From a virus (lineage: Duplodnaviria; Caudoviricetes): a DNA stretch of 64,000 bases. Below, in pieces: positions 25,079-49,063 of the stretch. Positions within the stretch are counted from its first letter, which is position 1. Each line of letters starts with the position of its first letter. The stretch lies in the IMG/VR virus record IMGVR_UViG_3300034101_006325, positions 128,001 to 192,000 of that record. The stretch is one strand, 5' to 3'. The notes under the pieces are model-generated. The model had not been told where the DNA came from. It was given only the letters and a program-made list of their open reading frames with translations, and did no database searches. The position numbers were made by a program, and so were the translations under genes.

Positions 25079-26995
25079 ATGACTAATCTAAATTTTAAAG
25101 AAAATATTTTTGGTGTTAAGAGTAAGCTGGATCCAGAGGCTCATGTAATTGTTGTCGCAGATTTATTTGTAGAAGATTATGTGGGAGGAGCGGAATTAAC
25201 CACTGAAGCCTTAATCAATACTTCTACATTAAAAATTCAAAAAGTTAGAAGCAGAGATGTCAACATAGAAATGCTTCGTGAAGGAGTTTCCAAGTTTTGG
25301 GTATTTGGAAATTTTGCGGGTCTTAACCCTCAATTATTACCAACAATTATTGGTAATCTTAAATATACAGTTCTTGAATACGATTACAAGTATTGCAAAT
25401 ATCGATCCCCAGAAAAACATTTGTCAGTTACAAAATCTTCATGTGACTGTCATGAACAAATGAATGGCAAGTTGGTTTCAGCATTTTATTATGGTGCCAC
25501 TTGCTTATGGTGGATGTCGGAAGCTCAAAAAGAAAAGTATCACAGCATTTTTCCTTTCCTGGCGGAAAAATCAAACATAGTTTTGTCCAGCGTTTTTTCT
25601 AGAGAAACACTCGGAAGAATTAAGTTTCTTAGAGAAAAGTTTAAAAATGAAGAAAAGAAAGGGTGGATTGTCCTAGGATCTGATTCATGGATCAAAGGCG
25701 CAGATGCTGCAAAGAATTGGTGCGAAGAAAACAATAAAGATTATGAGGTTGTGTGGGGATTATCTTATGAAGAACTTTTGGCAAAATTGTCAGTATCAGA
25801 AGGATTTGTTTATCTACCCCTTGGAAAAGATACATGCCCCCGCATGGTTATAGAAGCAAAGTTGTTAGGATGCAATCTTCATCTTAATGAAAATGTCCAG
25901 CATAAAGACGAAGAGTGGTTTAATACTGACAATCTAGACGAGATAGAAGAATATCTTTATGCTGCGCCAGATTTATTTTGGAATGCAATAAGGACAATAA
26001 TAAGTTATAAGCCAAAGATAAGTGGTTACACGACAGTTTATAATGCAGAATCGCAAGGTTATCCTTTTGTTGAGACTGTTAAGTCTATGTTAGGATTTTG
26101 TGATGAAGTATGCGTTTTGGACGGAGGGTCAACAGACAACACGTACAGCATTCTTCAAGAATTAGCAAAAAATGACGACAGAATAAAATTGTCTGTACAT
26201 AGAATTAACTTTGAATCACCCGACTATGCTAGAGAATCAGACGGGATGCAAAAAGCAAGAGCAAGAGATCTTTGTACGGGAGAATTTTGTTGGCAAATGG
26301 ATTGTGATGAAGTAGTACACGAAGAAGATTATGAAAAAATCATAGACCTTTGCAAAAAATTTCCAAATGGTATAGATCTAGTCTGTCTTCCTGTGGTTGA
26401 ATATTGGGGAGGACCTAACAAAGTAAGAGCTGATATTATGCCATGGAAGTGGCGTTTAAGTAGAAATAAGAAGAACATTACACATGGTGTCCCAAGAGAT
26501 GCTTCTTTGTTAGGTGAAAATAATTTAATATCAAGCGATGGCTGTGACATTGTGGACAGAGAAACAAATGAAAGAATTCAAAGCATTAATTTTTACAATG
26601 CTCAGATTGACACGATACGAAGAATGGCTGTTTCAGGTAACGCCGAGGCATTGAGCAAATATGAGACTTGGTACAATGCAGTCTCAGAAAATATACCTAC
26701 AGTATATCATTACAGCTGGTATGACATGGAAAGAAAAATTAGACTTTATAAAAATTATTGGTCTAAATTTTGGATAAATCTCGTTGGTAAGCAATACGAA
26801 GACACCGCAGAAAACAATATGATGTTTGATGTTCCTTGGCATCAAGTAACAGACGAGATGATTAAGGAAAGAGCGAAGGAATTTTCTGACAAATTAGGCG
26901 GCTGGATTTGGCATAGAAAATGGGACGGAGCTACAATCACACATTCTGTGAATATAAAAAGATCTCAGCCAAAGATCATGTTGGAGAAAAAATGA
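25079..26995 (+). CDS. Bifunctional glycosyltransferase (GT-B/GT4-like N-domain + GT-A/GT2 C-domain)
   Basis: GGAELT and CPRMVIEAKLLG (GT-B); ISGYTTVYN, VLDGGSTD, WQMDCDEV (GT2). Confidence 0.82.
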   Translation: MTNLNFKENIFGVKSKLDPEAHVIVVADLFVEDYVGGAELTTEALINTSTLKIQKVRSRDVNIEMLREGVSKFWVFGNFAGLNPQLLPTIIGNLKYTVLEYDYKYCKYRSPEKHLSVTKSSCDCHEQMNGKLVSAFYYGATCLWWMSEAQKEKYHSIFPFLAEKSNIVLSSVFSRETLGRIKFLREKFKNEEKKGWIVLGSDSWIKGADAAKNWCEENNKDYEVVWGLSYEELLAKLSVSEGFVYLPLGKDTCPRMVIEAKLLGCNLHLNENVQHKDEEWFNTDNLDEIEEYLYAAPDLFWNAIRTIISYKPKISGYTTVYNAESQGYPFVETVKSMLGFCDEVCVLDGGSTDNTYSILQELAKNDDRIKLSVHRINFESPDYARESDGMQKARARDLCTGEFCWQMDCDEVVHEEDYEKIIDLCKKFPNGIDLVCLPVVEYWGGPNKVRADIMPWKWRLSRNKKNITHGVPRDASLLGENNLISSDGCDIVDRETNERIQSINFYNAQIDTIRRMAVSGNAEALSKYETWYNAVSENIPTVYHYSWYDMERKIRLYKNYWSKFWINLVGKQYEDTAENNMMFDVPWHQVTDEMIKERAKEFSDKLGGWIWHRKWDGATITHSVNIKRSQPKIMLEKK

Positions 26996-27348
26996 AAAAT
27001 ATCCATGAGTCAATCAGTAATCTTTTGACTGTTAAATTAAATTCATACAAAGAAAAATCCCTTAATAAAGAAATTTGCATAAAAATATATCAGGATATAT
27101 TTGATTGTTTTGTCAATTTATTTCAAGAATCAAATATCAAAATTTCAAATGAATCAATGAATTTATTATCACAAATGTATTATGACGCTGTCAAGATTAA
27201 TTCAACGCAGGATCTAGATCCAGGAATCTTTGATAAAAGAGCATCAATAAAAAATATTGAAACCAAAGAATTGGCTCTTTTAGCAACTATGTTAAATGGT
27301 ACTGTTTTTTCTGAACCTATAATTTATGAGATAAAGAGGCGATCTTGA
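26992..27348 (+). CDS. Hypothetical protein
   Basis: ATG at 26992 overlaps the upstream TGA (ATGA); 118 aa. Confidence 0.6.
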   Translation: MKNIHESISNLLTVKLNSYKEKSLNKEICIKIYQDIFDCFVNLFQESNIKISNESMNLLSQMYYDAVKINSTQDLDPGIFDKRASIKNIETKELALLATMLNGTVFSEPIIYEIKRRS

Positions 27349-28193
27349 TAATTGTCACAAATGACTACGGATGTGGCACATCTTCATCTATAATAGACTA
27401 CAATTTACAAAATTATTGCATAGTATCAGAAGAAAATTGGGAACATGTTTTTGATTTAGATGATGATGTTCTTTTGGTAGGTCATGATTTTCTTTTCTAC
27501 ATGTGGGATACACAAGAAAAAGTAGAAAGATGGAAGAAATTTCAACATGCTAAAATTTTATGGTGTTTTGAAAGAGTAGATGCCATATTTGCCGAATGGC
27601 TGGCAAAAAGTCATTTTAGCATAAAAATGGCATCACAATTTGTTGATTCCATCTATGCTTGCGATGAAGATGATTGCAACAAATATGGATTTAAATGGTT
27701 GCCTCAGTGGGCATCAAATAAATTTTATGAAAAAAGAGGCATTAATCCTACAAAAGGAAACACCATACTCTTTAGCGGCCAAGCAGGAAAAATTGAATAC
27801 AAACCAAGAACTGCTCTTCTGCAACAAATTTTTCATGACAAAGATATTAAAGATTTGTTTTATATTAGCAACATAACAAGAGAACTGACATGGGATCAAT
27901 ACATTGACAACTTTCTTAGTTATAAAATAATACTAAACCCCGTGGGAACTCTTAAGGCATTAAACACAAGAGCTTATGAAGCTCTTTATTCAGGAAGAAT
28001 TCTTCTTCAACACACGGCAGGCGAATATAAAAGACACGAAGAAATGTTGTCAGAAACTCCTCATGTATTATTTTTTAAAAATTACGACGAATTAAAACAA
28101 AAAATAAAACAAATAGATTTGTGTAAAATAAATGCCGATTTAGCATTTAAAGACAATAATCTTGTTGAACGTCTTCAAAGAATAAAAATTTAA
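27345..28193 (+). CDS. Glycosyltransferase, GT-B (CgeB/Glyco_trans_1_2-like C-domain)
   Basis: FSGQ...YKPR and YKIILNP...LNTRAYEALYSG. Confidence 0.72.
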   Translation: MIIVTNDYGCGTSSSIIDYNLQNYCIVSEENWEHVFDLDDDVLLVGHDFLFYMWDTQEKVERWKKFQHAKILWCFERVDAIFAEWLAKSHFSIKMASQFVDSIYACDEDDCNKYGFKWLPQWASNKFYEKRGINPTKGNTILFSGQAGKIEYKPRTALLQQIFHDKDIKDLFYISNITRELTWDQYIDNFLSYKIILNPVGTLKALNTRAYEALYSGRILLQHTAGEYKRHEEMLSETPHVLFFKNYDELKQKIKQIDLCKINADLAFKDNNLVERLQRIKI

Positions 28194-28207
28194 TTATATA
28201 AAAATTC

Positions 28208-28822
28208 ATGACAAATCAATGGCAAAATTATTTAAACAGTAATTGCAAAATTATTGCAACAATATCGACAAAAAATAATGCAAATTCAATTTATGAATGC
28301 ATAAAAAAAACACTGCCGCATTTTGAGGCAGTGTTTGTTATAGACAATGGATCTTCTGACGATACTCAAAAAGAAATTTACAAATTTATAAGAAGAGAAA
28401 GAAGTAAAAATTTATTTATTTTTGATTATTCTCATAATAAACATTGGCAAACACTACCAGAAAGTGAAATACTTGACTTGTCAAGAATGAAAGCAAATGA
28501 GTTTATTGCTACATCTATGATTAATGTACCTCACTTGTGGGCATCTTTAAGACCTAACATTATGCTTGGCCCAAATACAAGAGAATTAATTTTAGAAAAT
28601 TGTTTTAATTGGACAAAGCCCGAATTAAATCATAATTTTTATAGAACATCAAATGGCAATTGGTCAGTGTCAATTACTTTTAAACAAGGAAAGCTGATGG
28701 TGGGACCAGATTCTGCCAATCCGGCTGAACCTTGCTTTTATTTAAAAAATGAAGAAAATATATTGAAAACAAAATTTGATGAAAGTCAACATTCGTCTAT
28801 TATAATTGGAGAAGAAGTATGA
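28208..28822 (+). CDS. GT2-like protein (divergent)
   Basis: VFVIDNGSSDDT motif, but no clear DxD. Confidence 0.55.
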   Translation: MTNQWQNYLNSNCKIIATISTKNNANSIYECIKKTLPHFEAVFVIDNGSSDDTQKEIYKFIRRERSKNLFIFDYSHNKHWQTLPESEILDLSRMKANEFIATSMINVPHLWASLRPNIMLGPNTRELILENCFNWTKPELNHNFYRTSNGNWSVSITFKQGKLMVGPDSANPAEPCFYLKNEENILKTKFDESQHSSIIIGEEV

Positions 28823-29724
28823 GAATAATGGTAACTGGGGGCAGAGGTTTTATTGGCAGCCATTTTGTGGAATTAGCTCTTCAAAATAATCATACAATTA
28901 TTGATGTTGATTTAATGACATATTGTTCAAATAGTTCTCTTCCGTGGGATAATCATGAAAATTACAAACATCTTAAACAAGACATTGTTGATATTAAGCA
29001 TCTTCCCTTTTGTGATGTAGTTGTAAACTTTGCTGCAGAAACTCATGTTGATAATTCAATTACTTACTCTCTAGACTTTGCAAGAACTAATTTTAATGGA
29101 GTTCATAATCTTCTTAACCTCATTAGAGGAAAAGTTTATGAAAGGCCATATTTCGTCCAAATTAGCACGGATGAAGTTTATGGCGACATAAAAGAAGGAG
29201 AATTTAATGAGTCAAGTCCTTTAAAACCCTCCAATCCATATAGCGCAACCAAAGCAGCTGCGGAACATTTAGTGACCAGTTACTCAAGAACATATGGCAT
29301 CGATTATCTCATTACAAGAAGTTCAAACAATTACGGACCTCGCCAGTATGAAGAAAAGCTGATATCTAAAACAATTAGCTGTTTAAAAGAAAATAGAAAA
29401 ATTCCTCTTCATGGAGATGGGTCTTACCTTAGAGACTGGATTTATGTTAAGGATAATGCAAAAGCTATTCTTGAATTAGTTGAATCAAATATAAAAAATG
29501 AAACTTTTAATATTTCTGGCGATCTTCACCTGAGTAACAAAGAAGTCGTAATGCAAGTATGCAATTGGCTTGGTATTTCTAACTGGGAAGATCGTGTTGT
29601 TTACACTGAGAATAGGCTCGGGCAAGATTTAAGATATTCAATAACAAGTAATAAATTAAAAGAATTTGGAATTAGAATTCCTAAAAAAGAAAAATTGCAC
29701 AATTTTTTAGAGGATATTAAGTGA
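28819..29724 (+). CDS. rmlB: dTDP-glucose 4,6-dehydratase
   Basis: VTGGRGFIG, NFAAETHVDNS, STDEVYGD, YSATK, NNYGPRQ. Confidence 0.93.
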   Translation: MRIMVTGGRGFIGSHFVELALQNNHTIIDVDLMTYCSNSSLPWDNHENYKHLKQDIVDIKHLPFCDVVVNFAAETHVDNSITYSLDFARTNFNGVHNLLNLIRGKVYERPYFVQISTDEVYGDIKEGEFNESSPLKPSNPYSATKAAAEHLVTSYSRTYGIDYLITRSSNNYGPRQYEEKLISKTISCLKENRKIPLHGDGSYLRDWIYVKDNAKAILELVESNIKNETFNISGDLHLSNKEVVMQVCNWLGISNWEDRVVYTENRLGQDLRYSITSNKLKEFGIRIPKKEKLHNFLEDIK

Positions 29725-30620
29725 GAAATTATTGCACTTTAGGAGATCACAGATACCTTCCACAGTTAATATGTCTGATCGATTCAATTATTGAAAATTT
29801 TAATCATGAATATAAAATTCATGTATTGTGTCTTGATGATAAAGTTTTTAATTGCTTAGATAAGAAATACAAAAATATAAATCTGTATCCAATCAATAAG
29901 ATTGAAGAAGATTTTAGCATTAAGGCTTTGAGATATCTTCCCGCAGGCCAAGAAGCAATTTCAAATGCTATGTCTTCCAATAAAGACCCGCAATTTGTTC
30001 AATTTTGCTGGGCTTTAGCTCCATGCTTTACCGATTGGGTTATGCAACGAATAAAACAGTCTTGCACGTATGTCGATGCAGATCTTTTTTTCTTCAATGA
30101 CACAAGTCAATTTTTTAATGAATTAGGAAAAAAATCAATAGGATTGGTTAGACATAGAATCGATTACATCTATACTAGTGGAGAATTTAATGTAGGAATT
30201 GTGCATTTTGAGCATGATGGTCCCGGCAGATCTGCACTAAAATTTTGGTGTGATGCAATGAAAAATCCTAGAAATCAATACTCTCTAGGCTATGGAACTT
30301 GCGGTGATCAAAAATATCTCGAAGCAATTAATTCCATTTATAGAGATGATGTTTCTATTGTTGATAAAAATTTTGGTCATCTCGCACCTTGGAATATAAC
30401 ATTTCATAAGTACGAAAATGATAAAATTATATGGAACAACACGCAGCAGGACTTGGTGTACTTCCATTTTGCTCACTTTGTAGTTGAAGAAAATGGTTAC
30501 AGAGGATCATATAAAAATGAATGGATATGGGGTGATCCTGTTAATCATGATTCTTATGTTAAAAAACTTTATGATCTTTATTATAAAAAAATGATTGAAT
30601 CCATCAAGGAGACTTTATGA
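29721..30620 (+). CDS. Glycosyltransferase, GT-A fold (nucleotide-diphospho-sugar transferase-like)
   Basis: YVDADLFFF (DxD), FNVG, GDQKYLE, LAPWN. Confidence 0.75.
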   Translation: MRNYCTLGDHRYLPQLICLIDSIIENFNHEYKIHVLCLDDKVFNCLDKKYKNINLYPINKIEEDFSIKALRYLPAGQEAISNAMSSNKDPQFVQFCWALAPCFTDWVMQRIKQSCTYVDADLFFFNDTSQFFNELGKKSIGLVRHRIDYIYTSGEFNVGIVHFEHDGPGRSALKFWCDAMKNPRNQYSLGYGTCGDQKYLEAINSIYRDDVSIVDKNFGHLAPWNITFHKYENDKIIWNNTQQDLVYFHFAHFVVEENGYRGSYKNEWIWGDPVNHDSYVKKLYDLYYKKMIESIKETL

Positions 30621-31498
30621 AAATTTCTGCAGCAATGATTGTTTTAAACGGTGACCATGTGTTGCAACAATCTTTAGCAAGTATTTATAATTTTGTTGAT
30701 GAGATTGTAATTGCAGAAGGTCCTGTTAAATTTTGGCAGTCTAAAGGGATCACAAAATCTACAGACAACACATTGGAAATAATAAAAAGCTTTCATGACC
30801 CTTCCAGAAAAATCAAATTAATTTCTTCTCAATATGAAGAAAAGAACGAGCAATTCACGGCAGCATTAAATTTATTGTCAAGTAATCCAAATTATCTTCT
30901 ACAAGTCGATGCAGATGAGGTATGGACCGAAGAATCTTTAAAAAATCTTAAAAATTTATTACAAGATAGGCAACCAGTATCTGTAGGCATCCATTCAAAT
31001 ACTTTTGTTGGAGGATTTGACAGAGTCATCTCAGGCTTTGAAGAAAATACAGATAATTTTTTAAGAGTTTTTAAATGGGAAGATGAATGCAAATTTATAA
31101 CACATCGACCGCCAACTATTAGATACAAAGATGGCAATCAAACAAGAGGTAAAAATCACATAGATTCAGACGAAGCAAGAGATTATTACAATATCTCAAT
31201 GTGTCATTATTCTTATGTGTGGCCTTCTCAAGTCAAATCAAAAATAGAATATTACAAAGCTAAAGTCTCTATGCAAAATTGCATACCTGATTTTTATGAA
31301 AATTACTGGCTCCCGTGGACTAAATCAACAACAATTGAAGAAAAATGGGAAATTGAAAAAAGAATAATGGGAATGCATGAATTTAGACCTGAAGTTAGAG
31401 GACCAGCATTTACTAAAGAATTTAAAGGTACGCATCCAATACAAATTACCAACAATAAATTAAATTTATTAAATAGAATTAAGAAAGAAATAGAATAA
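30617..31498 (+). CDS. Glycosyltransferase family 2
   Basis: MKISAAMIVLN, VDEIVIAEG, LQVDADE (DxD). Confidence 0.8.
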   Translation: MKISAAMIVLNGDHVLQQSLASIYNFVDEIVIAEGPVKFWQSKGITKSTDNTLEIIKSFHDPSRKIKLISSQYEEKNEQFTAALNLLSSNPNYLLQVDADEVWTEESLKNLKNLLQDRQPVSVGIHSNTFVGGFDRVISGFEENTDNFLRVFKWEDECKFITHRPPTIRYKDGNQTRGKNHIDSDEARDYYNISMCHYSYVWPSQVKSKIEYYKAKVSMQNCIPDFYENYWLPWTKSTTIEEKWEIEKRIMGMHEFRPEVRGPAFTKEFKGTHPIQITNNKLNLLNRIKKEIE

Positions 31499-32239: not shown

Positions 32240-32256
32240 TGTAAAGAGTTATTGCT

Positions 32257-33920: not shown

Positions 33921-33959
33921 AATTTCTTTTTGACACTACGCTAAAAAGACTATCATAAA

Positions 33960-34925: not shown

Positions 34926-34950
34926 TGAATAAATTTAAATACAGTAAACT

Positions 34951-36528: not shown

Positions 36529-36530
36529 AC

Positions 36531-37598: not shown

Positions 37599-37666
37599 AT
37601 CAAAATCATTTTGATCCAAATTAAAATGGGACAATTGTTTGTTAATTCCTATAAGTAAGAAATTAT

Positions 37667-38362
37667 ATGCATAATATTCATTTAAATTCAATTAATGAAA
37701 AAGGTTATGCATTAATTCCTAATTTTTTAGGAAGCAATGAAGTCAAAAATTTAAAAAATAGCTTATTCAAAATATACAGCAACTATAGATTAGGTGATCA
37801 GATAGAAATACCCGGAATGTCTACGCCTAAGCAATATAGTACTGGAAAATCCATGAGAATTTATCCTCCTGCATATTGTAATTTTTCTGAAATTGAAAAT
37901 TTTAAGAAAGATTGGCTCACACAACTTACTGATGCTTTTTTTGAAGGAGCAAATAATAAAGGACTTCAAGTATTTTCTTCATATGAAACATTGTCTTACA
38001 GAGAAGTCAACGAATTACCTAGAAATTCTCACATGCACGTAGATCCATATCATTCTCTTAAATTTTTTAGTTATTTGACTGATACAACCAAAGAGAATGG
38101 CGCACTTCAATTAATTCCGGGTACAAGCTGGATTGGCAAAAAAATAAGAAAAGAAAACAGCATTAATGAACTATTGACCAGCGATTTATATACCTTTAAA
38201 AAAAGCAATTATTATAATTCTGATCTTGAAAAAGAAACTACTTTTATCGAAGGTAAAGCTGGCGATCTAATAATTCTAGATACAGATACTGTGCATTGTG
38301 GGGGTATTCTTGTAAAGCCAGGGCTAGAAAGACTTACAATAATCTATCACAATAGGAAATAG
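37667..38362 (+). CDS. PhyH-type 2OG-Fe(II) dioxygenase
   Basis: HVD, NGALQLIPGT, GKAGDLII...VHCGG...R (HxD...H...R). Confidence 0.82.
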   Translation: MHNIHLNSINEKGYALIPNFLGSNEVKNLKNSLFKIYSNYRLGDQIEIPGMSTPKQYSTGKSMRIYPPAYCNFSEIENFKKDWLTQLTDAFFEGANNKGLQVFSSYETLSYREVNELPRNSHMHVDPYHSLKFFSYLTDTTKENGALQLIPGTSWIGKKIRKENSINELLTSDLYTFKKSNYYNSDLEKETTFIEGKAGDLIILDTDTVHCGGILVKPGLERLTIIYHNRK

Positions 38363-38363
38363 T

Positions 38364-38963
38364 ATGAAAACTTGTGCCATTGTAGGAAATTCTTCTTGTT
38401 TATTGGATAAAAGTTATGGAAGTTTTATCGATAGTCATGATGAAGTTATAAGATTTAACATGGCACGAACAAGAGGATTTAAAAAATATGTTGGAACAAA
38501 AACGACAATAAGATTTTGTAATCAACACATTGTTATGTCCAATTTTTCAGACGATTATTTAAAAGAACAGCTTAAAGTCTTTCCAGAATGGGACAATAAA
38601 GAAATTCTAACGTGGGAAAAACAAAAATTATTTTTTAAATATAGCAAAGAGCTTAAAGGAACAGAGCTTGAATCTCAGTTGTTTTCTAAAAACAATGAGA
38701 TTTACTACATAAGTGATTTAGAAATAATAAAATTAAAAAGAAAATTAAATGTAGAACCTACAATGGGGTTAGTGGGATTAGATTATGCTTTGACATTTTT
38801 TAGTACAATAAATTGCTTTGGTTTTGATTTTTATAAAAATCAAAACAGATCTTTTCATTATTTTGAAAAAACAATACCTTATAAATCTTGCCATGATCAT
38901 AAAGAAGAAAAGAAATTCTTCAAAGATGCTGAAGAATCAGGAAAGATAAAAATTTATAGATGA
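38364..38963 (+). CDS. GT29 sialyltransferase-like protein
   Basis: Sialylmotif L CAIVGNS...G..IDSHDEVIRFN...VGTKTT; S-like PTMGLVGLDYAL..FSTINCFGFDF; VS-like HDHKEE. Confidence 0.85.
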   Translation: MKTCAIVGNSSCLLDKSYGSFIDSHDEVIRFNMARTRGFKKYVGTKTTIRFCNQHIVMSNFSDDYLKEQLKVFPEWDNKEILTWEKQKLFFKYSKELKGTELESQLFSKNNEIYYISDLEIIKLKRKLNVEPTMGLVGLDYALTFFSTINCFGFDFYKNQNRSFHYFEKTIPYKSCHDHKEEKKFFKDAEESGKIKIYR

Positions 38964-39586
38964 AAATATTGATTCCTGCACGAATGGGATCCAAAGGATT
39001 CCCTAAAAAAAATAGAATTTTATTTGATTATACTGCTAGAATTATTCCTAAAGATTTCATTAAAAATACAGTAGTTTCGACAGATGACCCTGAAATTGTC
39101 AAAATGGCTGAATCTTATAATTTCTTAGTTCATCATCGATCAGAAGAATTATCAAGAGATGAAACTTCTACAAAAGAAGTAGTTGAATCTTTTTTAAAAC
39201 AAGAAATTATTGATGATAATTCAAAGTTAACAGCGCTTTTATATTTGACTTATCCGCAAAGAAAATGGGATGATGTTGTCAGAGCAAAAGAATTGATTGA
39301 TAGCTCTAAATCAAAATCTTTGCTATGTGCATTTGACATCGAGGCACATCCATTTTTAATGGCATTTGAAATGCCAGGTCATAGAGGAAAACAATTATAT
39401 AAACACAATTTATATAGAAGACAGGATTATCCTAAATGTTTTGAAATATCACATTTTGTATGTATGTTTTATGACGATGAAGTAAAAAATTTAAATAATA
39501 ATCTCTATAATGAAGACACATATTTTATGAAATGTAATAAAAAGGTAGATGTTGATCTACTAGAACATTTTTTAAAAATACAATGA
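38960..39586 (+). CDS. neuA: CMP-nonulosonate (CMP-Neu5Ac/KDN) synthetase
   Basis: LIPARMGSKGFPKKN, VVSTDD, LYLTYPQR, RRQD, DVD. Confidence 0.88.
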   Translation: MKILIPARMGSKGFPKKNRILFDYTARIIPKDFIKNTVVSTDDPEIVKMAESYNFLVHHRSEELSRDETSTKEVVESFLKQEIIDDNSKLTALLYLTYPQRKWDDVVRAKELIDSSKSKSLLCAFDIEAHPFLMAFEMPGHRGKQLYKHNLYRRQDYPKCFEISHFVCMFYDDEVKNLNNNLYNEDTYFMKCNKKVDVDLLEHFLKIQ

Positions 39587-40401
39587 AAAAAATTAAAATT
39601 ATTGCAGAAATTGGAATAAATCACAACGGCAGTGTTGAGTTGGCAAAAAAGATCATTGCAGTGTCTGCAGCAGCAGGCTGTGATTATGTTAAATTTCAAA
39701 AAAGAAACCCAGATGTATGTGTACCAGAAGATCAAAAATTAAAAGTTAGGTCTACTCCGTGGGGAGAAATGACGTACATTGACTATAAGAAAAAAATTGA
39801 ATTTGAAAAAGAACAATATGATGAAATTGACAAATTTTGCAAACAATTAGGCATTAAATGGTTTGCGTCTGCGTGGGATTTATCTTCTCTTGATTTTTTA
39901 AAAAGATATTCAGATGTTGTAAAGATTCCATCAGCACTTATTACAAATGAAGAACTTTTATTGAATGCAAGAAAAAAATTTGATTTTCTTTTAATATCAA
40001 CTGGCATGAGTACTGAGTCTGAGGTAGAAAATGCAGTTAAAATTTCAAATCCCGATGTAATTTTTCATACTAACTCAAGTTATCCTAGCAAAGTTGAAGA
40101 TTTAAATTTAAACTACATAAAACATCTAAAAAATAAGTTTAATAGAACGGTGGGTTATAGTGGACATGAATTTGGACTTGTTACAACATTTGCAACTGTA
40201 CCTTTGGGTGTCGAATGGATAGAAAGACATGTCACTTTAGATAGAGAAATGTGGGGATCTGATCAAAAATCATCTGTAGAACCATCGGGTATTTACAAGC
40301 TTGTCAAAGGAATACGGGATATAGAAAAATCATTAGGAAGTATTGGGCCAAGAGTAATTTGTAAAGAAGAATTAGAAAAGAAAAAATCACTTAGAGGTTG
40401 A
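39583..40401 (+). CDS. neuB: Nonulosonate synthase (NeuB family), no C-terminal SAF domain
   Basis: IAEIGINHNG, VKFQKR, KIPS, STGM, GYSGHE, IERHVTLD..MWGSDQ; 272 aa. Confidence 0.93.
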   Translation: MKKIKIIAEIGINHNGSVELAKKIIAVSAAAGCDYVKFQKRNPDVCVPEDQKLKVRSTPWGEMTYIDYKKKIEFEKEQYDEIDKFCKQLGIKWFASAWDLSSLDFLKRYSDVVKIPSALITNEELLLNARKKFDFLLISTGMSTESEVENAVKISNPDVIFHTNSSYPSKVEDLNLNYIKHLKNKFNRTVGYSGHEFGLVTTFATVPLGVEWIERHVTLDREMWGSDQKSSVEPSGIYKLVKGIRDIEKSLGSIGPRVICKEELEKKKSLRG

Positions 40402-40709
40402 ATGTGTTAATTTACGTAGATATTGATGAAACAATCTGCAATACGCCTGACGATAGAAACTATTTAAAGTCTACACCCATAAAAAAAAATATAAAAATTA
40501 TAAATTCTCTTCATGAAAAAGGCCATCAAATTGTTTATTGGACTGCAAGAGGAACAGTCACAGGAATTGATTGGTCAAATGAAACTATTAGACAGTTAGA
40601 CGAATGGGGTGTCAAAAGAACAAAAGTTCTTTTTGGAAAGCCAGCATATGATTTATTCATATGCGACAAAGCGATTAATTCAAATGTTTTTTTTAATTTA
40701 ACTCAATAA
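40398..40709 (+). CDS. Small HAD phosphatase (EcbF/BcbF capsule-biosynthesis-like)
   Basis: YVDIDETI (DxD), WTARG, GKP, DLFICDKA. Start may be GTG 40404. Confidence 0.8.
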   Translation: MNVLIYVDIDETICNTPDDRNYLKSTPIKKNIKIINSLHEKGHQIVYWTARGTVTGIDWSNETIRQLDEWGVKRTKVLFGKPAYDLFICDKAINSNVFFNLTQ

Positions 40710-40722
40710 GGCATATTAATTT

Positions 40723-41229
40723 ATGATCAAACTTTTACCGATGATGCAATTGGAAGAGCTAAATCTTCTCGAAAAATATCTTGATAAAGAAAAAGTGATT
40801 TGCGAATACGGCTCAGGCGGTTCTACAAATTGGCTTTCAGAAAGAACCAAATTTGTATATTCAATAGAACACAACAAAGAGTGGTATGATAAAACAAAAA
40901 GTAGTTTGTCAAATAGAGAAAATGTAGAAATTTTTTATGTCCCAAGTTTTAATTGGGACCCAAGCACCGAAGGAAATATTGATAGTTTTGAAAACTACAT
41001 TAATATGCCAGGAACTTTAAATATAGATTTTTCTTTCTTTTTAGTGGATGGCAGAGCTAGAGTTGACTGTTGCAGGTTTATATCAAAAAAATTTCCAACA
41101 GCTATTATTGCTTTTCATGACTATACCAATAGAGCAAATGATGTTGAGCACAATTATTCAAGAGTCTTAGAACATTTAACTTTAATTGAAACCTGTAAAA
41201 CTCTTGCAATTTTTAAAAAGAAAGTCTAA
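40723..41229 (+). CDS. SAM-dependent methyltransferase-like protein
   Basis: CEYGSGGST, SIEHNKEW, LVDGRAR, AFHDY. Confidence 0.7.
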   Translation: MIKLLPMMQLEELNLLEKYLDKEKVICEYGSGGSTNWLSERTKFVYSIEHNKEWYDKTKSSLSNRENVEIFYVPSFNWDPSTEGNIDSFENYINMPGTLNIDFSFFLVDGRARVDCCRFISKKFPTAIIAFHDYTNRANDVEHNYSRVLEHLTLIETCKTLAIFKKKV

Positions 41230-41286
41230 ATAAAATAAAAATTATTCTAATGAACTAAGAGACACAACCATCTTATATTTGAGTCA

Positions 41287-42102
41287 ATGGAATCAAATCT
41301 GTCATTAGAAACTTTACCTACAGGAAAACCTCATGTTTCATTTTCTGAGGTAAAGTTATGGAAAGAATGTTCTTTTAGACATCATCTTGTTCATGTCAAA
41401 AAAATTGATTTATCTAAGCCCTCGCCCGTTTTAGATTTTGGCACAGCTGTTCATGCTTCTTGTGAAAAATATCTTTTGACAAGAGAGATGGACTACCAAG
41501 TAGCTTTTAAACATTTGGACGATGCCTGGAAAAAACATGAAGGAATTGTAGAATTCAATGCTTTGTCATTGGAAAAAGCAAAGCAAGAAGCTACACAAAT
41601 TCTTTTAGAAGTGCCTGCTTTTCTCGACAAAGAATTTCCAGGATGGGAAGTCGTTGATGCTGAACATCAGCTTTATGAAGCAGTTGAAGGCCATCCTCAC
41701 GCTTTCAAAGGATTCATCGACGGAGTTATAAAAGCCAAAGGGAAAAGAGGTGAGACAATCTATTGGATTCTGGATTGGAAGACAACGATTAGAGGCTGGC
41801 TTAGAGAAAAAAGATCTGATGAAATGGTTAAGTCACAATTGGCACTCTATAAAAACTACTGGTGTCAAAAAAATCCTGAAATTCAATTTAAAGATGTCAG
41901 ATGCGGTTTCGTCCTTTTAAAAAAATCTGCAAAACCAGGAGAACATTGTGAACTTTTTTCTGTTTCACTTGGAGAAGTTCCTATTAAAAGGTCTTTAAAG
42001 GTCGTTAGCAATATGCTTACTTCTGTAAAGAGAGGTATTGCTTTGAAAAATAGAGACTCTTGTACTTATTGTGAATACAAAAATACCAATCATTGCACAT
42101 AA
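41287..42102 (+). CDS. PD-(D/E)XK nuclease, AddB/Cas4-like with Fe-S-type Cys
   Basis: VSFSEV...CS, FGTAVH, GFIDG, LDWKT, QLALY, C-terminal CTYCEYK..NHC. Confidence 0.85.
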   Translation: MESNLSLETLPTGKPHVSFSEVKLWKECSFRHHLVHVKKIDLSKPSPVLDFGTAVHASCEKYLLTREMDYQVAFKHLDDAWKKHEGIVEFNALSLEKAKQEATQILLEVPAFLDKEFPGWEVVDAEHQLYEAVEGHPHAFKGFIDGVIKAKGKRGETIYWILDWKTTIRGWLREKRSDEMVKSQLALYKNYWCQKNPEIQFKDVRCGFVLLKKSAKPGEHCELFSVSLGEVPIKRSLKVVSNMLTSVKRGIALKNRDSCTYCEYKNTNHCT

Positions 42103-42162
42103 TTTATTTTTGATAGCATTAATTTTTATTACAACTTTTAAAAAGTTGGTAATATAACGTGG

Positions 42163-43410
42163 ATGAAGAAAAAAACGATTTTAATGCTATCAGATCATCC
42201 TTTGTCTACTTCAGGCGTAGGCACACAGGCAAGATGGTTAATAACAGGTTTAATCAACACTGGTAAATATAGTTTTAGATGTTTTGGTGGTGCTGTTAGA
42301 CACGATAACTACGATCTTAACGTAGTAAGTCCTGATTTTGTCATTAAACCGACAAATGGTTTTGGTGATAGAAATCTTTTAAGAAAAACTCTAGCACAAT
42401 TAAAACCCGACGCTCTTCTTCTCTTTACGGATCCAAGATTTTTTATTTGGACTTGGGAAATGGAGGATGAGATTCACCAAGTCTGTCCTATTGCTTATTG
42501 GCACTTATGGGATAATGGACCTTGGCCGGAATTTAATAGGGCACTATACGCGTCCAATGATTTGATCAATTGCATTAATTATCCGACCTATGAGATGGTC
42601 AAAGAACGTTTTCCAGATAGGACAAATTATATTCCACATGCTGTCCCAAAGGATCTTTACTATCCTTTACCTGACGAAGAGGTAAAAAACTTTAAAAGAA
42701 ATCTTTTAGGCAAAGATAAAGAAGATCATTTTGTTGTGGGATATGTTAGTAGAAATGCCCGTCGAAAAATGCCAAGTGACATTATTGTTTCTTGGAAAAT
42801 GTTTATTGATGAGCTAAAGAAAAAGCATGGGCACACAAAAGCCAGTCTTGTCATGCATACAGAGCCTTTAGATCCGGAAGGACCTAACTTACATCATGTA
42901 TTAGATTCATTGGACGCGAAAGATCATGTTGTTTTTTCTAATAAACGTGTAAATTTTCAAGAAATGAATGTGATATACAACATATTCGATACAATCGTTA
43001 ATAGAAGCTCTAATGAAGGTTTTGGACTTCCTACACTAGAAACAATGATGTGTGGCAAACCAATTATTGCAATAAAGACAGGCGGTTTAACGAGACAAGT
43101 CGAAGATCCTGATACGGGTTTTCAACACGGCATAGCGTTGGAACCTGAAATAAAGTCTTTGGTGGGAAACCAAATGGTTCCTTACATTTATGAAGATTTC
43201 ATAAGCCACAAAACTTTGGCAGATGCATTTATGAAAATGTACGAAATGGGTCCTGAAAAAAGAAAAGAACTTGGACAAAAAGCAATGCAGCATGCGCACA
43301 AAAATTACAATATTGACAATATGATAAAAGATTGGGATTCTTCTTTGACCAAATTAATTGACAATTGGCAAGAAGGCAAAAACAAGAGATGGACGCACGA
43401 GGAGATTTGA
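42163..43410 (+). CDS. Glycosyltransferase family 4
   Basis: SGVGTQ, YVSRNARRK, NEGFGLPTLETMMCGKP. Confidence 0.88.
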   Translation: MKKKTILMLSDHPLSTSGVGTQARWLITGLINTGKYSFRCFGGAVRHDNYDLNVVSPDFVIKPTNGFGDRNLLRKTLAQLKPDALLLFTDPRFFIWTWEMEDEIHQVCPIAYWHLWDNGPWPEFNRALYASNDLINCINYPTYEMVKERFPDRTNYIPHAVPKDLYYPLPDEEVKNFKRNLLGKDKEDHFVVGYVSRNARRKMPSDIIVSWKMFIDELKKKHGHTKASLVMHTEPLDPEGPNLHHVLDSLDAKDHVVFSNKRVNFQEMNVIYNIFDTIVNRSSNEGFGLPTLETMMCGKPIIAIKTGGLTRQVEDPDTGFQHGIALEPEIKSLVGNQMVPYIYEDFISHKTLADAFMKMYEMGPEKRKELGQKAMQHAHKNYNIDNMIKDWDSSLTKLIDNWQEGKNKRWTHEEI

Positions 43411-43411
43411 A

Positions 43412-44584
43412 ATGAAAAAAGCAATTCTTAGAGGACCTTCTCTCACACAATCCGGTTATGGCGTTCATTGTAGACAAGTTGCATCTTGGCTCTTGTCAAA
43501 AAAAGATTGGGATGTCAAATTCCAAGCTCTGCCATGGGGAGATACCCCGTGGTTATTAAATGAAAAATCAAATGATGGTTTGATTGATAGAATTATGAAG
43601 AATACTGTGGACCTATCTGACAGTAATTCTAATTATGACATCTCCTTTCAATTACAGCTTCCTAATGAATGGGATCACAAACTTGCAAAATACAATGTTG
43701 GAATGACTGCAGGAATTGAAACTGATATTTGCAATCCTGTGTGGATAGACTGCTGTAATAAAATGGATTTAGTCATAGTTCCTTCAAAGCACGCAGAAAA
43801 TTCATTAAAAAATTCAGGAAAAATTAACACACCAATTCAAATAGTACCAGAATCGTTTTGCAATGAAATTTTAGACGAAACAAGCACAGATCTTTTGAAA
43901 AATTTCCCTACATTTAGCACAAATACTAATTTTCTGGTATTTGGACAGATTACAGGGGACAATCCCATGAATGATAGAAAGAATATTTTCTTCACTATTA
44001 AATGGTTTTGTGAAGTCTTCAAAGATGATCCTGATGTAGGTCTTGTAATAAAGACAAATATCGGTAGAAATACTCAGATTGATAAAAAGAAAACGTTAGA
44101 ATTGATGTCAATCATTGTAAAAGAATGCAGAAAAAGTCAATTTCCTAAAATTCATATTATTCATGGTGACATGACAGACAAAGAAGTTGCTGCGTTATAC
44201 AAGCATCCTCAGATTAATGGATTTATTTCCCTAACAAGAGGAGAGGGATATGGCCTACCCCTGTTGGAAGCAGCAGCTAGCGGGCTACCAGTTATTGCCA
44301 CAGGTTGGTCGGGACATATGGACTTTTTATCCCGAGGAAAGTTTATTGAAATAGACCACGATGTGAAAAAAATACATGCATCAAGAGCAGACAATAAACT
44401 ATTCATGCCTGAAGCAAAATGGGCTGAAGCAAATGAAGATGACTTCAAGAAAAAAATCGTAAAATTTAAAAATTCTCAAGCAAAACCCAAAGAATGGGCA
44501 AAAGAATTAGAATTAATCATTAAAGAAAATTATAGTCAGGAATCAATTTTTAAATACTATGACAAAGTAGTTGAAAATATATGA
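43412..44584 (+). CDS. Glycosyltransferase family 4-like
   Basis: TQSGYG, DRKNI, TRGEGYGLPLLEAAASGLPVI. ATG at 43412 with GAGGAG SD. Confidence 0.88.
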   Translation: MKKAILRGPSLTQSGYGVHCRQVASWLLSKKDWDVKFQALPWGDTPWLLNEKSNDGLIDRIMKNTVDLSDSNSNYDISFQLQLPNEWDHKLAKYNVGMTAGIETDICNPVWIDCCNKMDLVIVPSKHAENSLKNSGKINTPIQIVPESFCNEILDETSTDLLKNFPTFSTNTNFLVFGQITGDNPMNDRKNIFFTIKWFCEVFKDDPDVGLVIKTNIGRNTQIDKKKTLELMSIIVKECRKSQFPKIHIIHGDMTDKEVAALYKHPQINGFISLTRGEGYGLPLLEAAASGLPVIATGWSGHMDFLSRGKFIEIDHDVKKIHASRADNKLFMPEAKWAEANEDDFKKKIVKFKNSQAKPKEWAKELELIIKENYSQESIFKYYDKVVENI

Positions 44585-49036: not shown

Positions 49037-49063
49037 TAAATTACATCAAAACTTTAATTAGAA

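What the first reader, a model, noticed from the sequence alone, without database searches (positions are those of the whole stretch)
25079..44584. A 19.5-kb, entirely soluble glycan-building island in a phage, next to the late sigma and baseplate genes
Seen: 9 GT genes (10 domains), 5 methyltransferase-like genes, 7 nucleotide-sugar enzymes and a dioxygenase. None has an obvious TM segment, and there is no Wzx/Wzy/ABC exporter or initiating phospho-GT. Established: cytoplasmic virion glycosylation is known in chloroviruses, mimiviruses and some mycobacteriophages; serotype-converting phage loci use membrane enzymes. Inference: a giant-virus-scale pathway making a complex methylated, sialylated glycan on the virion. 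Alternatives are DNA hypermodification or remodelling of host glycan precursors.
Basis: partly seen in the sequence, partly recalled or inferred. Interest (0 to 1): 0.8.

Follow-up and report, generated by a model that had tools for sequence, protein, structure and literature searches.

The report
Exporter-free glycan-building island in jumbo phage
An uncultured freshwater jumbo phage carries a conserved 19.5-kb block of soluble enzymes that make three rare activated sugars, one of them sialic-acid-like, and join them into a methylated glycan, but whether that glycan coats the virus particle, the host surface or something else is still open.

Summary
Window 25079-44584 is one co-directional array of 24 ORFs. 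It holds nine glycosyltransferase genes (GT2, GT4/GT1, GT8-like, GT29), seven sugar-nucleotide enzymes, three to five SAM methyltransferase-like genes and a PhyH-type 2OG dioxygenase. No island ORF has a TM segment.

The island is not an assembly chimera. Relatives at about 60% amino-acid identity keep the same gene order, including the junction to the late-sigma and baseplate genes. Versions of it occur in at least 123 IMG/VR viral loci. Across 1.46 Mb of related loci, one cellular-looking ABC-transporter locus held a clear membrane-exporter gene. Two viral loci each held one short, unannotated ORF with four hydrophobic segments.

The biosynthetic reading is solid. Placing the glycan on the virion is untested. 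Soluble transferases are also normal for lipid-linked pathways that use host export, and a mini-GT29 sits in a Wzm/Wzt locus elsewhere. My odds are virion proteins 0.42, host envelope glycan 0.33 and DNA 0.06.

Large glycosyltransferase clusters beside tail-fibre genes are already published for aquatic myophages. The compact cytoplasmic GT29, dioxygenase and nonulosonate module appears undescribed. This scan has noted similar islands on other DNA.

The parts
25079..26995 (+). 638-aa transferase. C-terminal GT2 domain (aa 319-449). The N-terminal 318 aa are unassigned and show only a GT-B-like motif.
   Evidence: Pfam PF00535, E 2.1e-11. PDB chondroitin synthase, E 2.6e-4. Ortholog in L007 at 48% identity. 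N-terminus not significant by hhalign.
26920..27348 (+). 142-aa ORF of unknown function. It overlaps the previous gene by 76 nt, so the start is uncertain.
   Evidence: No Pfam or PHROG hit and no homolog in the related loci.
27345..28193 (+). 282-aa putative GT-B transferase.
   Evidence: Weak Pfam Glyco_trans_1_2, E 2.7e-4. Conserved in L003 (53%) and L007 (47%).
28208..28822 (+). 204-aa putative GT2-like transferase.
   Evidence: Weak Pfam GT2, E 2.3e-3. Weakly conserved, 25-29% identity.
28819..29724 (+). NDP-hexose 4,6-dehydratase, RmlB-like.
   Evidence: Pfam Epimerase/GDP_Man_Dehyd, E 1e-55. TIGR01181 scores 293.7 bits, below the cut-off of 365. 77% identity in L003.
29721..30620 (+). 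GT8-like retaining GT-A transferase. It is the most conserved core gene of the island family.
   Evidence: AF2 pLDDT 92.4. Foldseek PDB top matches are glycogenin, XXYLT1, LARGE1, LgtC and GlyE. D119-x-D121 and GHLAPW are invariant. 2862 homologs. 123 IMG/VR loci.
30617..31498 (+). GT2 transferase, usually paired with the GT8-like gene.
   Evidence: Pfam PF00535, E 9e-8. Next to the GT8-like gene in 66 of 80 viral loci.
31499..32239 (+). 246-aa probable SAM methyltransferase (a lead only).
   Evidence: Atlas feature neighbours carry O-methyltransferase, Methyltransf_24 or CmcI families. No Pfam hit. Present in 29 of 80 loci.
32257..32859 (+). 200-aa SAM methyltransferase (weak evidence).
   Evidence: Pfam Methyltransf_23, E 8e-4. 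DIGCGAGD motif visible.
32829..33920 (+). PLP sugar aminotransferase, nearest to 3-aminotransferases.
   Evidence: Pfam DegT, E 8.6e-56. Among its PDB matches, those I recognise as 3-aminotransferases from my own knowledge are 5u1z, WbpE, 2oga and QdtB.
33960..34925 (+). GDP-mannose 4,6-dehydratase. An accessory gene, variable among relatives.
   Evidence: TIGR01472 scores 453 bits, above the cut-off of 415. Absent in L003, where a UDP-glucose dehydrogenase sits; only a remnant in L005.
34951..35322 (+). Cupin 3,4-ketoisomerase, FdtA/QdtA-like.
   Evidence: Pfam FdtA, E 3.6e-13. PDB FdtA (2pa7) and QdtA.
35315..36528 (+). Two adjacent class I SAM methyltransferases (212 aa and 192 aa).
   Evidence: Pfam Methyltransf_11/23/25, E 1e-10 and 8e-9.
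36522..37598 (+). GT1/GT4-type transferase (358 aa).
   Evidence: Pfam PF00534, E 4.6e-7. 70% identity in L003.
37667..38362 (+). Fe(II)/2-oxoglutarate dioxygenase of the PhyH family. It recurs beside the nonulosonate module.
   Evidence: Pfam PhyH, E 1.5e-9. H124-x-D126, H210 and R222 conserved. AF2 pLDDT 94.2. Foldseek matches AsqJ, SptF, SnoN, HygX and AviO1. Also with GT29 and CMP-transferase in L014.
38364..38963 (+). Compact (199 aa) anchorless GT29 sialyltransferase-like enzyme.
   Evidence: Pfam PF00777, E 3.5e-27. PDB ST6Gal1, E 1.5e-10. Motifs L, S, III (HYFE) and VS (Hx4E) conserved in 8 homologs.
38960..39586 (+). CMP-nonulosonate synthetase-like cytidylyltransferase.
   Evidence: Pfam CTP_transf_3, E 8.6e-11. 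TIGR03584 PseF scores 53 bits, below its cut-off.
39583..40401 (+). NeuB-family nonulosonate synthase without the SAF domain.
   Evidence: Pfam NeuB, E 2.7e-65. TIGR03569 scores 215 bits, below its cut-off. PDB PseI (8h2c) and a 290-aa NeuB (6ncs).
40398..40709 (+). 103-aa HAD phosphatase of the nonulosonate module.
   Evidence: TIGR01689 scores 23.8 bits (weak). PDB 9iqw 'capsule biosynthesis protein', E 5e-9. Conserved in L003 and L005.
40723..41229 (+). 168-aa ORF with a SAM-binding-like motif (EYGSGGST).
   Evidence: No Pfam or PHROG hit. Motif seen by eye. Homologs in 16 of 80 viral loci.
41287..42102 (+). PD-(D/E)XK nuclease. It stays next to the GT4 pair in distant relatives.
   Evidence: Pfam PDDEXK_1, E 6e-17. 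Adjacent to GT4a-GT4b in L008 and L009 and present in 10 of 80 loci.
42163..44584 (+). Two GT4 transferases (415 aa and 408 aa).
   Evidence: Pfam PF00534, E 1.3e-12 and 2.5e-8. Weak GT4-conflict hit. hhalign between them gives 98% probability. 39% and 30% identity in marine L008 and L009.
44581..44883 (+). 100-aa protein with one N-terminal TM helix. It overlaps both GT4b and the sigma gene.
   Evidence: KD19 of 2.75 at residue 1. 76% identity in L005 and 34% in L003.
44867..45610 (+). gp55-like late sigma factor (modest support).
   Evidence: PHROG 234, E 2.2e-5. 88% identity in L005. Homologs near the island in 7 of 80 loci.
47483..51406 (+). Baseplate hub, gp25 and a wedge subunit. They follow the GT4 pair with no gap above 27 bp.
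   Evidence: PHROG 196 and 219. Pfam GPW_gp25, E 2e-7.

Best explanation
This is a conserved, phage-borne glycan factory that works in the cytoplasm.

Shown from families and folds:
- RmlB-like dehydratase, FdtA/QdtA-like 3,4-ketoisomerase and a DegT 3-aminotransferase form the standard route from an NDP-glucose to an NDP-3-amino-3,6-dideoxyhexose.
- Gmd supplies GDP-4-keto-6-deoxymannose.
- NeuB, a HAD phosphatase and a cytidylyltransferase make a CMP-activated nonulosonic acid.
- A catalytically intact PhyH dioxygenase is fixed beside that module.
- Nine soluble transferases (GT2, GT4/GT1, GT8-like, compact GT29) and three to five SAM methyltransferases are present.

Inferred:
- Host pools supply the NDP-glucose, the GDP-mannose and the hexose or hexose phosphate. 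No nucleotidyltransferase and no NeuC is encoded in the 200 kb.
- The methyltransferases next to the aminosugar genes N- or O-methylate the sugars.
- The dioxygenase tailors the nonulosonate.
- GT29 caps the chain.
- The conserved GT8-GT2 pair builds the inner part of the glycan, and lineage-specific genes build the outer part.

Inferred, least secure: the acceptor is the phage's own virion protein, most plausibly baseplate, tail-fibre or capsid proteins. These would be glycosylated in the cytoplasm before lysis, as in chloroviruses, mimiviruses and some mycobacteriophages.
For: Family and fold assignments.

All island ORFs lack TM segments.

The 200-kb record has no Bac_transf, ABC ATPase, sugar-1-P nucleotidyltransferase, NeuC or polytopic exporter-like ORF.

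Across 87 related loci (1.46 Mb), only 3 of 1972 ORFs of 100 aa or more have four or more hydrophobic segments. One of them is the Wzm of the cellular-looking locus L015, which shows that the method detects exporters.

The island is inherited like a core module. 19 genes are syntenic in L003 at a mean of 60% identity, against 57% for four genes just downstream of the island. In L005 the figures are 70% against 77%. A relative with 52% GC (L007) keeps the gene order. A GT8-GT2-DegT-RmlB core recurs in 45-66 of 80 viral loci, with variable outer genes. This fits an acceptor that travels with the phage better than a host-specific serotype cassette.

From GT4a (42163) to 61597 no gap exceeds 27 bp. 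The last transferases, the sigma gene and the baseplate genes therefore form one tight array.

The disulfide Cys of motif S in animal GT29 aligns with Phe in this protein, and the motif L Cys is not invariant among homologs. This fits an enzyme working in the reducing cytoplasm.

Precedent for phage virion glycosylation is cited in PMC12619734.
Against: No acceptor, initiating protein glycosyltransferase or glycosylated virion protein was identified.

Soluble transferases are equally typical of lipid-linked pathways that use a host primer and exporter (established knowledge). A compact GT29 lies in a Wzm/Wzt locus (L015).

The HAD phosphatase's best matches are capsule-biosynthesis proteins.

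In related loci the recurrent non-glycan neighbours are PhoH, a clamp loader, the nuclease and the sigma, not recognisable virion genes.

A late sigma factor must be made before late genes, so sharing an array with it does not show late expression.

Published readings of similar clusters favour host O-chain modification (PMC7029224; PMC7824862), although those readings are also untested.

39% of the genome is missing.
Confidence: 0.42

Rival explanations
1. Host envelope remodelling. The soluble phage transferases extend a host lipid-linked primer at the inner face of the membrane. The primer could be undecaprenyl-PP-sugar made by a host initiating enzyme, or a capsule lipid primer. Host Wzx, Wzm/Wzt or Kps machinery then exports the new methylated, ulosonate-capped glycan. 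This changes the cell surface, which could block superinfection or stop progeny from sticking to debris.
For: The enzyme set matches the serotype-specific parts of ABC-transporter-dependent O-antigen and group-2 capsule loci. Their transferases lack TM segments, and their chains end in methyl or ulosonic-acid caps (established knowledge).

A compact GT29 sits with ABC2_membrane, ABC_tran, GT4, GT2 and a deacetylase in L015.

The HAD phosphatase matches capsule-biosynthesis proteins.

This is the published reading for pelagimyophage and jumbo cyanophage clusters.

A small membrane-anchored protein overlaps GT4b.
Against: The core of the island is conserved across freshwater and marine phages of very different GC (32-52%), presumably with different hosts. 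It would therefore have to fit many host primers and exporters.

Close relatives keep nearly the same gene set instead of swapping it, unlike loci under serotype diversification.

No exporter was seen in about 80 viral islands.

Confidence: 0.33
2. DNA hypermodification. Some or all of the transferases glycosylate a modified base in phage DNA. The conserved PD-(D/E)XK nuclease next to the GT4 pair would act on unmodified DNA.
For: Phages do add mono- to trisaccharides to 5hmC using LPS-like or teichoic-acid-like transferases (Pyle et al.).

The nuclease-GT4a-GT4b trio stays together through rearrangements.

There is a weak GT4-conflict hit.
Against: The 200 kb holds no credible ThyA-type hydroxymethylase (12.6 bits), no C5 DNA methylase and no TET/JBP hit. 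The TET/JBP control search rang nowhere, so that blank is weak.

The island methyltransferases are generic class I enzymes, not DNA methylases.

The dioxygenase fold matches small-molecule and sugar-tailoring oxygenases.

Nine transferases and a nonulosonate far exceed any known DNA glycan.
Confidence: 0.06
3. Another soluble acceptor. The product could be a free or lipid-free glycoconjugate, such as a glycosylated small molecule, or glycosylated host cytoplasmic proteins used to take over the cell.
For: The aminosugar genes, methyltransferases and PhyH-type oxygenase resemble deoxyaminosugar tailoring in natural-product pathways. Examples are the DesV, SnoN, HygX and AviO1 matches. Relatives add C-methyltransferase and FkbM-type genes.
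Against: No aglycone-forming genes (PKS, NRPS or terpene) were seen in the island or in related loci. Nine transferases imply an oligo- or polysaccharide.
Confidence: 0.12
4. Artefact. The island is a bacterial polysaccharide locus joined to phage DNA by misassembly.
For: The 200-kb record has strongly uneven GC: 38-51% in its first 120 kb against 30-35% in the window. No single independent contig bridges both genes at the 25-kb junction.
Against: The island's GC (31.5%) equals that of both flanks (32.1% and 33.5%).

The junction from the GT4 pair through the sigma gene to the hub recurs in L003 and L005.

The island lies in contigs of 50-257 kb with phage genes.

There are 123 IMG/VR viral loci with the island.

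Four independent lake runs hold both sides of the junction at similar depth.

The GC change near 120 kb is gradual and varies gene by gene.
Confidence: 0.02

Closest known systems
'Host recognition cluster' of pelagimyophages and cyanomyophages (Zaragoza-Solas et al. 2020, PMC7029224) and the glycan clusters of jumbo cyanophages (Iyer et al. 2021, PMC7824862)
   Same: These are large blocks of glycosyltransferases and sugar-nucleotide enzymes in aquatic myophages, placed beside tail-fibre or baseplate genes. GT8 is the commonest family there, and the GT8-like gene is the core here. The T4-type neighbours PhoH, clamp loader and gp55-like sigma are shared.
   Different: This phage has DnaE and no PolB in the held 200 kb, and its estimated size is about 330 kb. 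The island is syntenically conserved among close relatives rather than hypervariable. The GT29, nonulosonate and dioxygenase module is not described in those papers. Their reading of host O-chain modification is untested.
Virion glycosylation machineries of chloroviruses and mimiviruses, and of cluster F/O mycobacteriophages (giant viruses from my own knowledge; Freeman et al. 2023 as cited in PMC12619734)
   Same: Virus-encoded soluble transferases, methyltransferases and aminosugar or deoxysugar pathways act in the cytoplasm without an oligosaccharyltransferase or exporter. A conserved core with variable outer decoration is the pattern of chlorovirus glycans (own knowledge).
   Different: No glycosylated virion protein is known here. 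Mycobacteriophage cassettes hold only a few genes (two glycosyltransferases are reported for cluster F1 phage Maravista). In giant viruses the genes are partly dispersed. The host here is a bacterium.
Animal and poxviral GT29 sialyltransferases (Pfam PF00777; ST6Gal1, ST3Gal1, ST8Sia3)
   Same: Sialylmotifs L, S, III and VS are all present, including the HYFE and H-x4-E signatures. HMMER matches ST6Gal1 at E 1.5e-10.
   Different: The protein is only 199 aa, with no membrane anchor or stem. The motif S disulfide Cys aligns with Phe. It is encoded next to its own CMP-sugar pathway and a 2OG dioxygenase. It belongs to a large set of compact forms of about 200 aa, mostly from tailed phages. The donor sugar is unknown.
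ABC-transporter-dependent O-antigen and group-2 capsule 'region 2' loci of Gram-negative bacteria
   Same: TM-free transferases, multi-domain transferases, methyl or ulosonic-acid chain caps, and NeuB/NeuA modules (established knowledge). One compact GT29 lies in such a locus (L015).
   Different: No Wzm/Wzt, Kps or initiating enzyme is present here, nor in about 80 related viral islands.
Moraphages (Perez-Hernandez et al. 2025, PMC12619734)
   Same: They are uncultured freshwater jumbo phages in which four glycosyltransferase orthogroups are core genes, and they have an Hc1 histone-like gene. This genome also has Hc1.
   Different: Moraphages were placed by PolB. This record has DnaE and no PolB. 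Membership is therefore not supported.

Membership tests
GT29 sialyltransferase family (PF00777) | Sequence match above the Pfam gathering score | tested here: met
   95.9 bits against a cut-off of 23, E 3.5e-27.
GT29 sialyltransferase family (PF00777) | Sialylmotifs L, S, III (H-Y-F/W-E) and VS (H-x4-E) | tested here: met
   The 8-sequence alignment A1 shows invariant G8-N9-S10, D23-x-H25-D26, R30-x-N32, P132-T-M-G135, H165-Y-F-E168 and H177...E182. Aligned to ST6Gal1.
GT29 sialyltransferase family (PF00777) | Type II membrane anchor and the L-S disulfide of Golgi enzymes | tested here: not met
   The protein starts at motif L and has no TM segment (KD19 maximum 1.28). The motif S Cys aligns with Phe. 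These features belong to the animal enzymes rather than to the catalytic family.
GT29 sialyltransferase family (PF00777) | Transfer from a CMP-nonulosonate donor | not testable with these tools
   This is only inferred from the overlapping cytidylyltransferase and NeuB genes.
Nonulosonic acid (NeuB/NeuA-type) biosynthesis module | NeuB-family synthase plus CMP-activating cytidylyltransferase | tested here: met
   PF03102, E 2.7e-65. PF02348, E 8.6e-11. Both fall below every NCBIfam equivalog cut-off, so the sugar's identity is open.
Nonulosonic acid (NeuB/NeuA-type) biosynthesis module | Source of the hexosamine or hexose substrate (NeuC, PseB-type or similar) | tested here: not met
   No Epimerase_2 in the 200 kb. 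The substrate must come from the host or from the missing 39% of the genome.
NDP-3-amino-3,6-dideoxyhexose pathway (RmlB, FdtA/QdtA, FdtB/QdtB type) | 4,6-dehydratase, 3,4-ketoisomerase and 3-aminotransferase present together | tested here: met
   In marine relatives the isomerase and dehydratase are fused.
NDP-3-amino-3,6-dideoxyhexose pathway (RmlB, FdtA/QdtA, FdtB/QdtB type) | Glucose-1-P nucleotidyltransferase (RmlA) and an N-acyltransferase | tested here: not met
   No NTP_transferase in the 200 kb. No acyltransferase family was found among the island ORFs. Methyltransferases sit beside the pathway genes instead.
Virus-encoded virion glycosylation system | Glycan demonstrated on a virion protein | not testable with these tools
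   There is no isolate and no proteomic data. No RNA run was available.
Virus-encoded virion glycosylation system | Consistent genomic linkage of the transferases to virion genes | tested here: inconclusive
   Linked to baseplate genes in this clade. In 80 wider loci the detectable non-glycan neighbours are PhoH, a clamp loader, the nuclease and the sigma.
Wzx/Wzy- or ABC-transporter-dependent polysaccharide locus | Initiating phosphoglycosyltransferase plus flippase and polymerase, or an ABC exporter | tested here: not met
   No Bac_transf, ABC_tran or polytopic ORF. The same absence holds in related viral loci, and the method detected the Wzm of L015. The genome is 61% complete.
Phage DNA glycosyl-hypermodification cluster (MT plus 5mYOX plus GT, or hm-pyrimidine plus GT) | Enzyme that makes the hydroxymethyl or hydroxy base handle | tested here: not met
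   ThyA family scores 12.6 bits only. No DNA_methylase. No Tet_JBP, although the control for that search was blank. The PhyH fold is not of TET/AlkB type.
Moraphage lineage | Family B DNA polymerase used as a marker | tested here: not met
   No PF00136 hit. DnaE is present at E 1.5e-53.

The most novel reading that the evidence does not exclude
A tailed phage builds, entirely in the host cytoplasm and with its own enzymes, a complex methylated heteroglycan on its own virion proteins. The glycan would be capped by a dioxygenase-tailored nonulosonic acid, transferred by a minimal disulfide-free GT29. That would be giant-virus-style autonomous glycosylation in Caudoviricetes. Because the same core island occurs in more than 100 viral contigs, glycan-coated virions would be common among large aquatic phages.
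Probability: 0.38. Interest if true: 0.8.

Novelty: new variant of a known kind. Interest (0 to 1): 0.55.

Why it matters
If the glycan is on the virion, large aquatic phages would carry a sugar coat of their own making. That would affect adsorption, stickiness to particles, grazing, decay and recognition by host defences. It would also extend autonomous viral glycosylation from giant eukaryotic viruses to tailed phages.

If the glycan goes to the host surface, the island is a portable, exporter-free serotype cassette that rewires the envelope of abundant freshwater bacteria during infection.

Either way, the compact cytoplasmic GT29 with its partner dioxygenase is a small, soluble, disulfide-free sialyltransferase-like enzyme. 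It is a candidate tool for glycoengineering.

The finding also shows that the usual label of 'LPS genes' for such phage clusters rests on no test.

Tried and rejected
- Sigma-70 promoter and terminator scans gave counts no higher than shuffles. The T4 late motif TATAAATA occurred 5 times against 8.8 expected. No timing inference was possible.
- No RNA holder was listed for the island.
- Read laying: no single contig bridges both genes at 25.0 kb. Only overlapping short contigs from different runs cover it.
- The search for related loci with GT29, as a single sequence and as an alignment, found nothing in viral contigs. The GT8-like alignment worked.
- Context look-ups for fused GT29 forms were uninformative. 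One was a 1.3-kb contig and the other a eukaryotic chromosome. L013 and L016 were too short.
- PDB sequence searches gave nothing useful for 29721, 31499 or the N-terminal half of 25079.
- hhalign of that N-terminal half, of 27345 and of 40723 against the island's GT4 and methyltransferase profiles was not significant. The GT4a/GT4b control gave 98% probability.
- Megablast of the island against GenBank phages found no match.
- PHROG and Pfam scans of the large flanking ORFs found only a Laminin_G_3 lectin-like domain, so no acceptor candidate emerged.
- Moraphage membership was considered and rejected.
- Freeman et al. 2023 could not be read.

Full report
**Where the window lies.** The window is bases 128001-192000 of a 200,303-bp linear IMG/VR virus record that CheckV rates 61% complete. 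That implies a genome of roughly 330 kb. The left part of the window is a minus-strand block. It holds SbcC-like, primase, PhoH, helicase, ClpP-like and GroEL-like genes plus several large unknown ORFs. An Hc1 histone-like gene also lies there. From 25079 onward everything runs on the plus strand: first the island, then a gp55-like sigma, a baseplate hub, gp25, a wedge subunit and large unknown proteins, one of which has a lectin-like domain. The helicase's best relatives are jumbo and mega phages at about 31-34% identity. The record has DnaE and no PolB. Sequences nearly identical to the island occur in lake and freshwater metagenomes from more than ten studies.

**The observation.** It is confirmed. 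Twenty-four co-directional ORFs fill 25079-44584, mostly with overlapping stop and start codons.
- Pfam and NCBIfam identify GT2 (25079 C-terminal half, 30617, weakly 28208), GT1/GT4 (36522, 42163, 43358, weakly 27345) and GT29 (38364).
- They also identify an RmlB-like dehydratase, a DegT aminotransferase, Gmd (above the equivalog cut-off), an FdtA-like cupin, two firm and one weak SAM methyltransferase, a PhyH dioxygenase, a CMP-sugar synthetase-like enzyme, NeuB without a SAF domain, a small HAD phosphatase and a PD-(D/E)XK nuclease.
- I added a ninth transferase. ORF 29721-30620 has no Pfam hit but folds at pLDDT 92.4 into a GT8-type GT-A fold, with top PDB matches to glycogenin, XXYLT1, LARGE1, LgtC and GlyE. 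It has an invariant DxD and a GHLAPW motif.
- The claimed tenth transferase domain, the N-terminal 318 aa of the first gene, could not be confirmed.
- Two of the five 'methyltransferase-like' genes rest only on leads.
- No island ORF reaches a Kyte-Doolittle 19-residue mean above 1.28, so none has a TM helix. The next ORF (44581-44883) has one.

**Not a chimera and not a one-off.** Island GC (31.5%) equals that of both flanks.
- Contigs L002-L004 (50-66 kb) carry 19 orthologs in the same order at 29-77% identity (mean 60%). L005 and L006 carry the distal half at 50-87% identity.
- Both sets continue into the same TM protein, sigma, 121-aa and 497-aa genes, and L005 also reaches the hub gene. 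Mean identity of island genes matches that of these downstream genes.
- A 257-kb contig with 52% GC (L007) keeps the proximal order.
- Marine contigs L008 and L009 hold the order nuclease, GT4a, a GT4b-GT2 fusion, GT8-like, GT2, DegT and an FdtA-RmlB fusion, followed by further GT and methyltransferase genes. In L008 a PhyH gene begins at the locus end.
- A scan of IMG/VR with the GT8-like profile gave 123 viral loci. In the 80 that were kept, GT2 accompanies the GT8-like gene in 66, RmlB in 48, DegT in 45, GT4b in 29, NeuB in 17, GT29 in 14 and PhyH in 11. One locus (L029) has 16 of the 21 island families.
- Other recurrent neighbours are further glycan genes (GT2, GT1, GT10, GT-D, FkbM- and C-methyltransferases, nucleotidyltransferases, a DHDPS-family enzyme) and a clamp loader.
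- The pattern is a conserved core with lineage-specific outer genes.
- Four independent lake runs hold both sides of the 25-kb junction at similar depth, but no single contig bridges it.

**What it makes.** DegT's PDB matches include sugar 3-aminotransferases (5u1z, WbpE, DesV, QdtB). The cupin matches FdtA and QdtA. With the RmlB-like dehydratase this is the textbook route to an NDP-3-amino-3,6-dideoxyhexose.
- No N-acyltransferase is present. Two methyltransferases follow directly, so N- or O-methylation is the likely tailoring step (inference).
- Gmd gives GDP-4-keto-6-deoxymannose. It is accessory: a UDP-glucose dehydrogenase replaces it in L003, and it is degraded in L005.
- NeuB, the HAD phosphatase and the cytidylyltransferase form a nonulosonate module. 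All three score below every equivalog cut-off, and no NeuC or sugar-1-P nucleotidyltransferase exists in the 200 kb. The sugar's identity is therefore open, and 'sialylated' overstates what is known.
- The phosphatase suggests a route through a phosphorylated hexose (inference).
- The PhyH protein keeps the HxD...H triad and the 2OG-binding Arg. Its model (pLDDT 94.2) resembles small-molecule and sugar-tailoring oxygenases such as SnoN, HygX and AviO1. It is also found with a cytidylyltransferase and a GT29 in an unrelated marine contig (L014). It probably tailors the nonulosonate (inference).

**The GT29.** It has all four sialylmotifs and aligns to ST6Gal1. It is only 199 aa, with no anchor. 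The motif S disulfide Cys aligns with Phe, which fits a cytoplasmic enzyme. Compact GT29 proteins of about 200 aa are numerous: 1611 cluster representatives score E of 1e-10 or better, and the nearest atlas clusters are mostly from tailed phages. In GenBank phages only one uncultured 484-kb phage has any, with five copies. I found no paper describing a phage GT29.

**Where the glycan goes.** This is unresolved.
- For the virion: the enzymes are soluble and no exporter accompanies them. The 200 kb has none. Across 1.46 Mb of related loci, only 3 of 1972 ORFs have four or more hydrophobic segments, and one of those is the Wzm of a cellular-looking locus.
- Also for the virion: the island is inherited like a core module across phages of very different GC and habitat, and in this clade it forms a tight array with the sigma and baseplate genes.
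- Against giving this much weight: transferases that act on lipid-linked acceptors are normally TM-free too. One compact GT29 sits in a Wzm/Wzt locus. The phosphatase resembles capsule enzymes. The wider family's detectable neighbours are replication or regulatory genes, not virion genes. A late sigma factor must itself be expressed before late genes.
- Published work on pelagimyophages describes a 44.6-kb 'host recognition cluster' beside tail fibres, rich in transferases with GT8 the commonest. It reads this, without a test, as host O-chain modification. Iyer et al. read jumbo cyanophage clusters the same way. Moraphages have four core transferase orthogroups.
- The DNA alternative is weak. 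No hydroxymethylase, C5 methylase or TET-like enzyme was found, and the oxygenase has the wrong fold type. The conserved nuclease-GT4 trio remains unexplained.
- My odds are virion proteins 0.42, host envelope 0.33, another soluble acceptor 0.12, DNA 0.06 and artefact 0.02.

**Novelty.** Large transferase clusters in aquatic myophages are known, so this is a new variant of a known kind. The new elements are three:
- the demonstration that one syntenic, exporter-free island family spans more than 100 viral contigs;
- its conserved GT8-GT2-aminosugar core;
- the compact GT29, dioxygenase and nonulosonate module.

Earlier notes of this scan describe similar GT29 and nonulosonate islands on other DNA. 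Those notes are leads and not evidence, and I did not test them.

Noticed in passing
whole record G000:C1 (window = 128001-192000): GC is strongly uneven. It is 38-51% over the first 120 kb, with single genes up to 56%, against 30-35% from 124 to 192 kb. The change near 118-127 kb is gradual and varies gene by gene within one minus-strand gene run. This could be mosaic acquisition or a misjoin. It does not affect the island, whose flanks share its GC.
   Followed up: partly
window 19799-19957 (-): An Hc1 histone H1-like gene (PF07432, E 2.4e-10) lies between the PhoH and helicase genes. The same family sits near PhoH in marine relatives L008 and L009 and is reported in moraphages.
   Followed up: partly
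window 41287-44584; L008:5063-10004; L009:5751-9771: The PD-(D/E)XK nuclease stays directly upstream of GT4a-GT4b in relatives at 30-40% identity, although the rest of the island is rearranged. In the marine forms GT4b is fused to a GT2 domain. The reason for the nuclease-transferase linkage is unexplained.
   Followed up: partly
L015:727-9129: A compact GT29 (215 aa) lies in a cellular-looking locus with ABC2_membrane (Wzm), ABC_tran (Wzt), GT4, a polysaccharide deacetylase, GT2 and GT1. Compact GT29 enzymes are therefore not restricted to phages and can serve exported glycans.
   Followed up: no
LR756508.1, around 325506-326006 and four other places: This uncultured 484-kb phage is the only GenBank phage record with GT29-like sequences, and it has five of them.
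   Followed up: no
L031:7489-8349 and 11 other loci: A GT10 (fucosyltransferase-like) gene recurs in the related viral islands. It is a second family better known from eukaryotes.
   Followed up: no
window 44581-44883 (+): A 100-aa protein with one N-terminal TM helix and an acidic C-terminal part overlaps both the last GT4 gene and the sigma gene. It is conserved in close relatives. It could tether something to the membrane.
   Followed up: no
window 24000-25100: The strand switch at the island's start coincides with the minimum of cumulative GC skew and an 85-bp AT-rich divergent intergenic region.
   Followed up: no
G000:C1:77763-83186 (-), outside the window: An 1807-aa ORF with about nine hydrophobic segments is the only strongly membrane-like protein in the record.
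   Followed up: no
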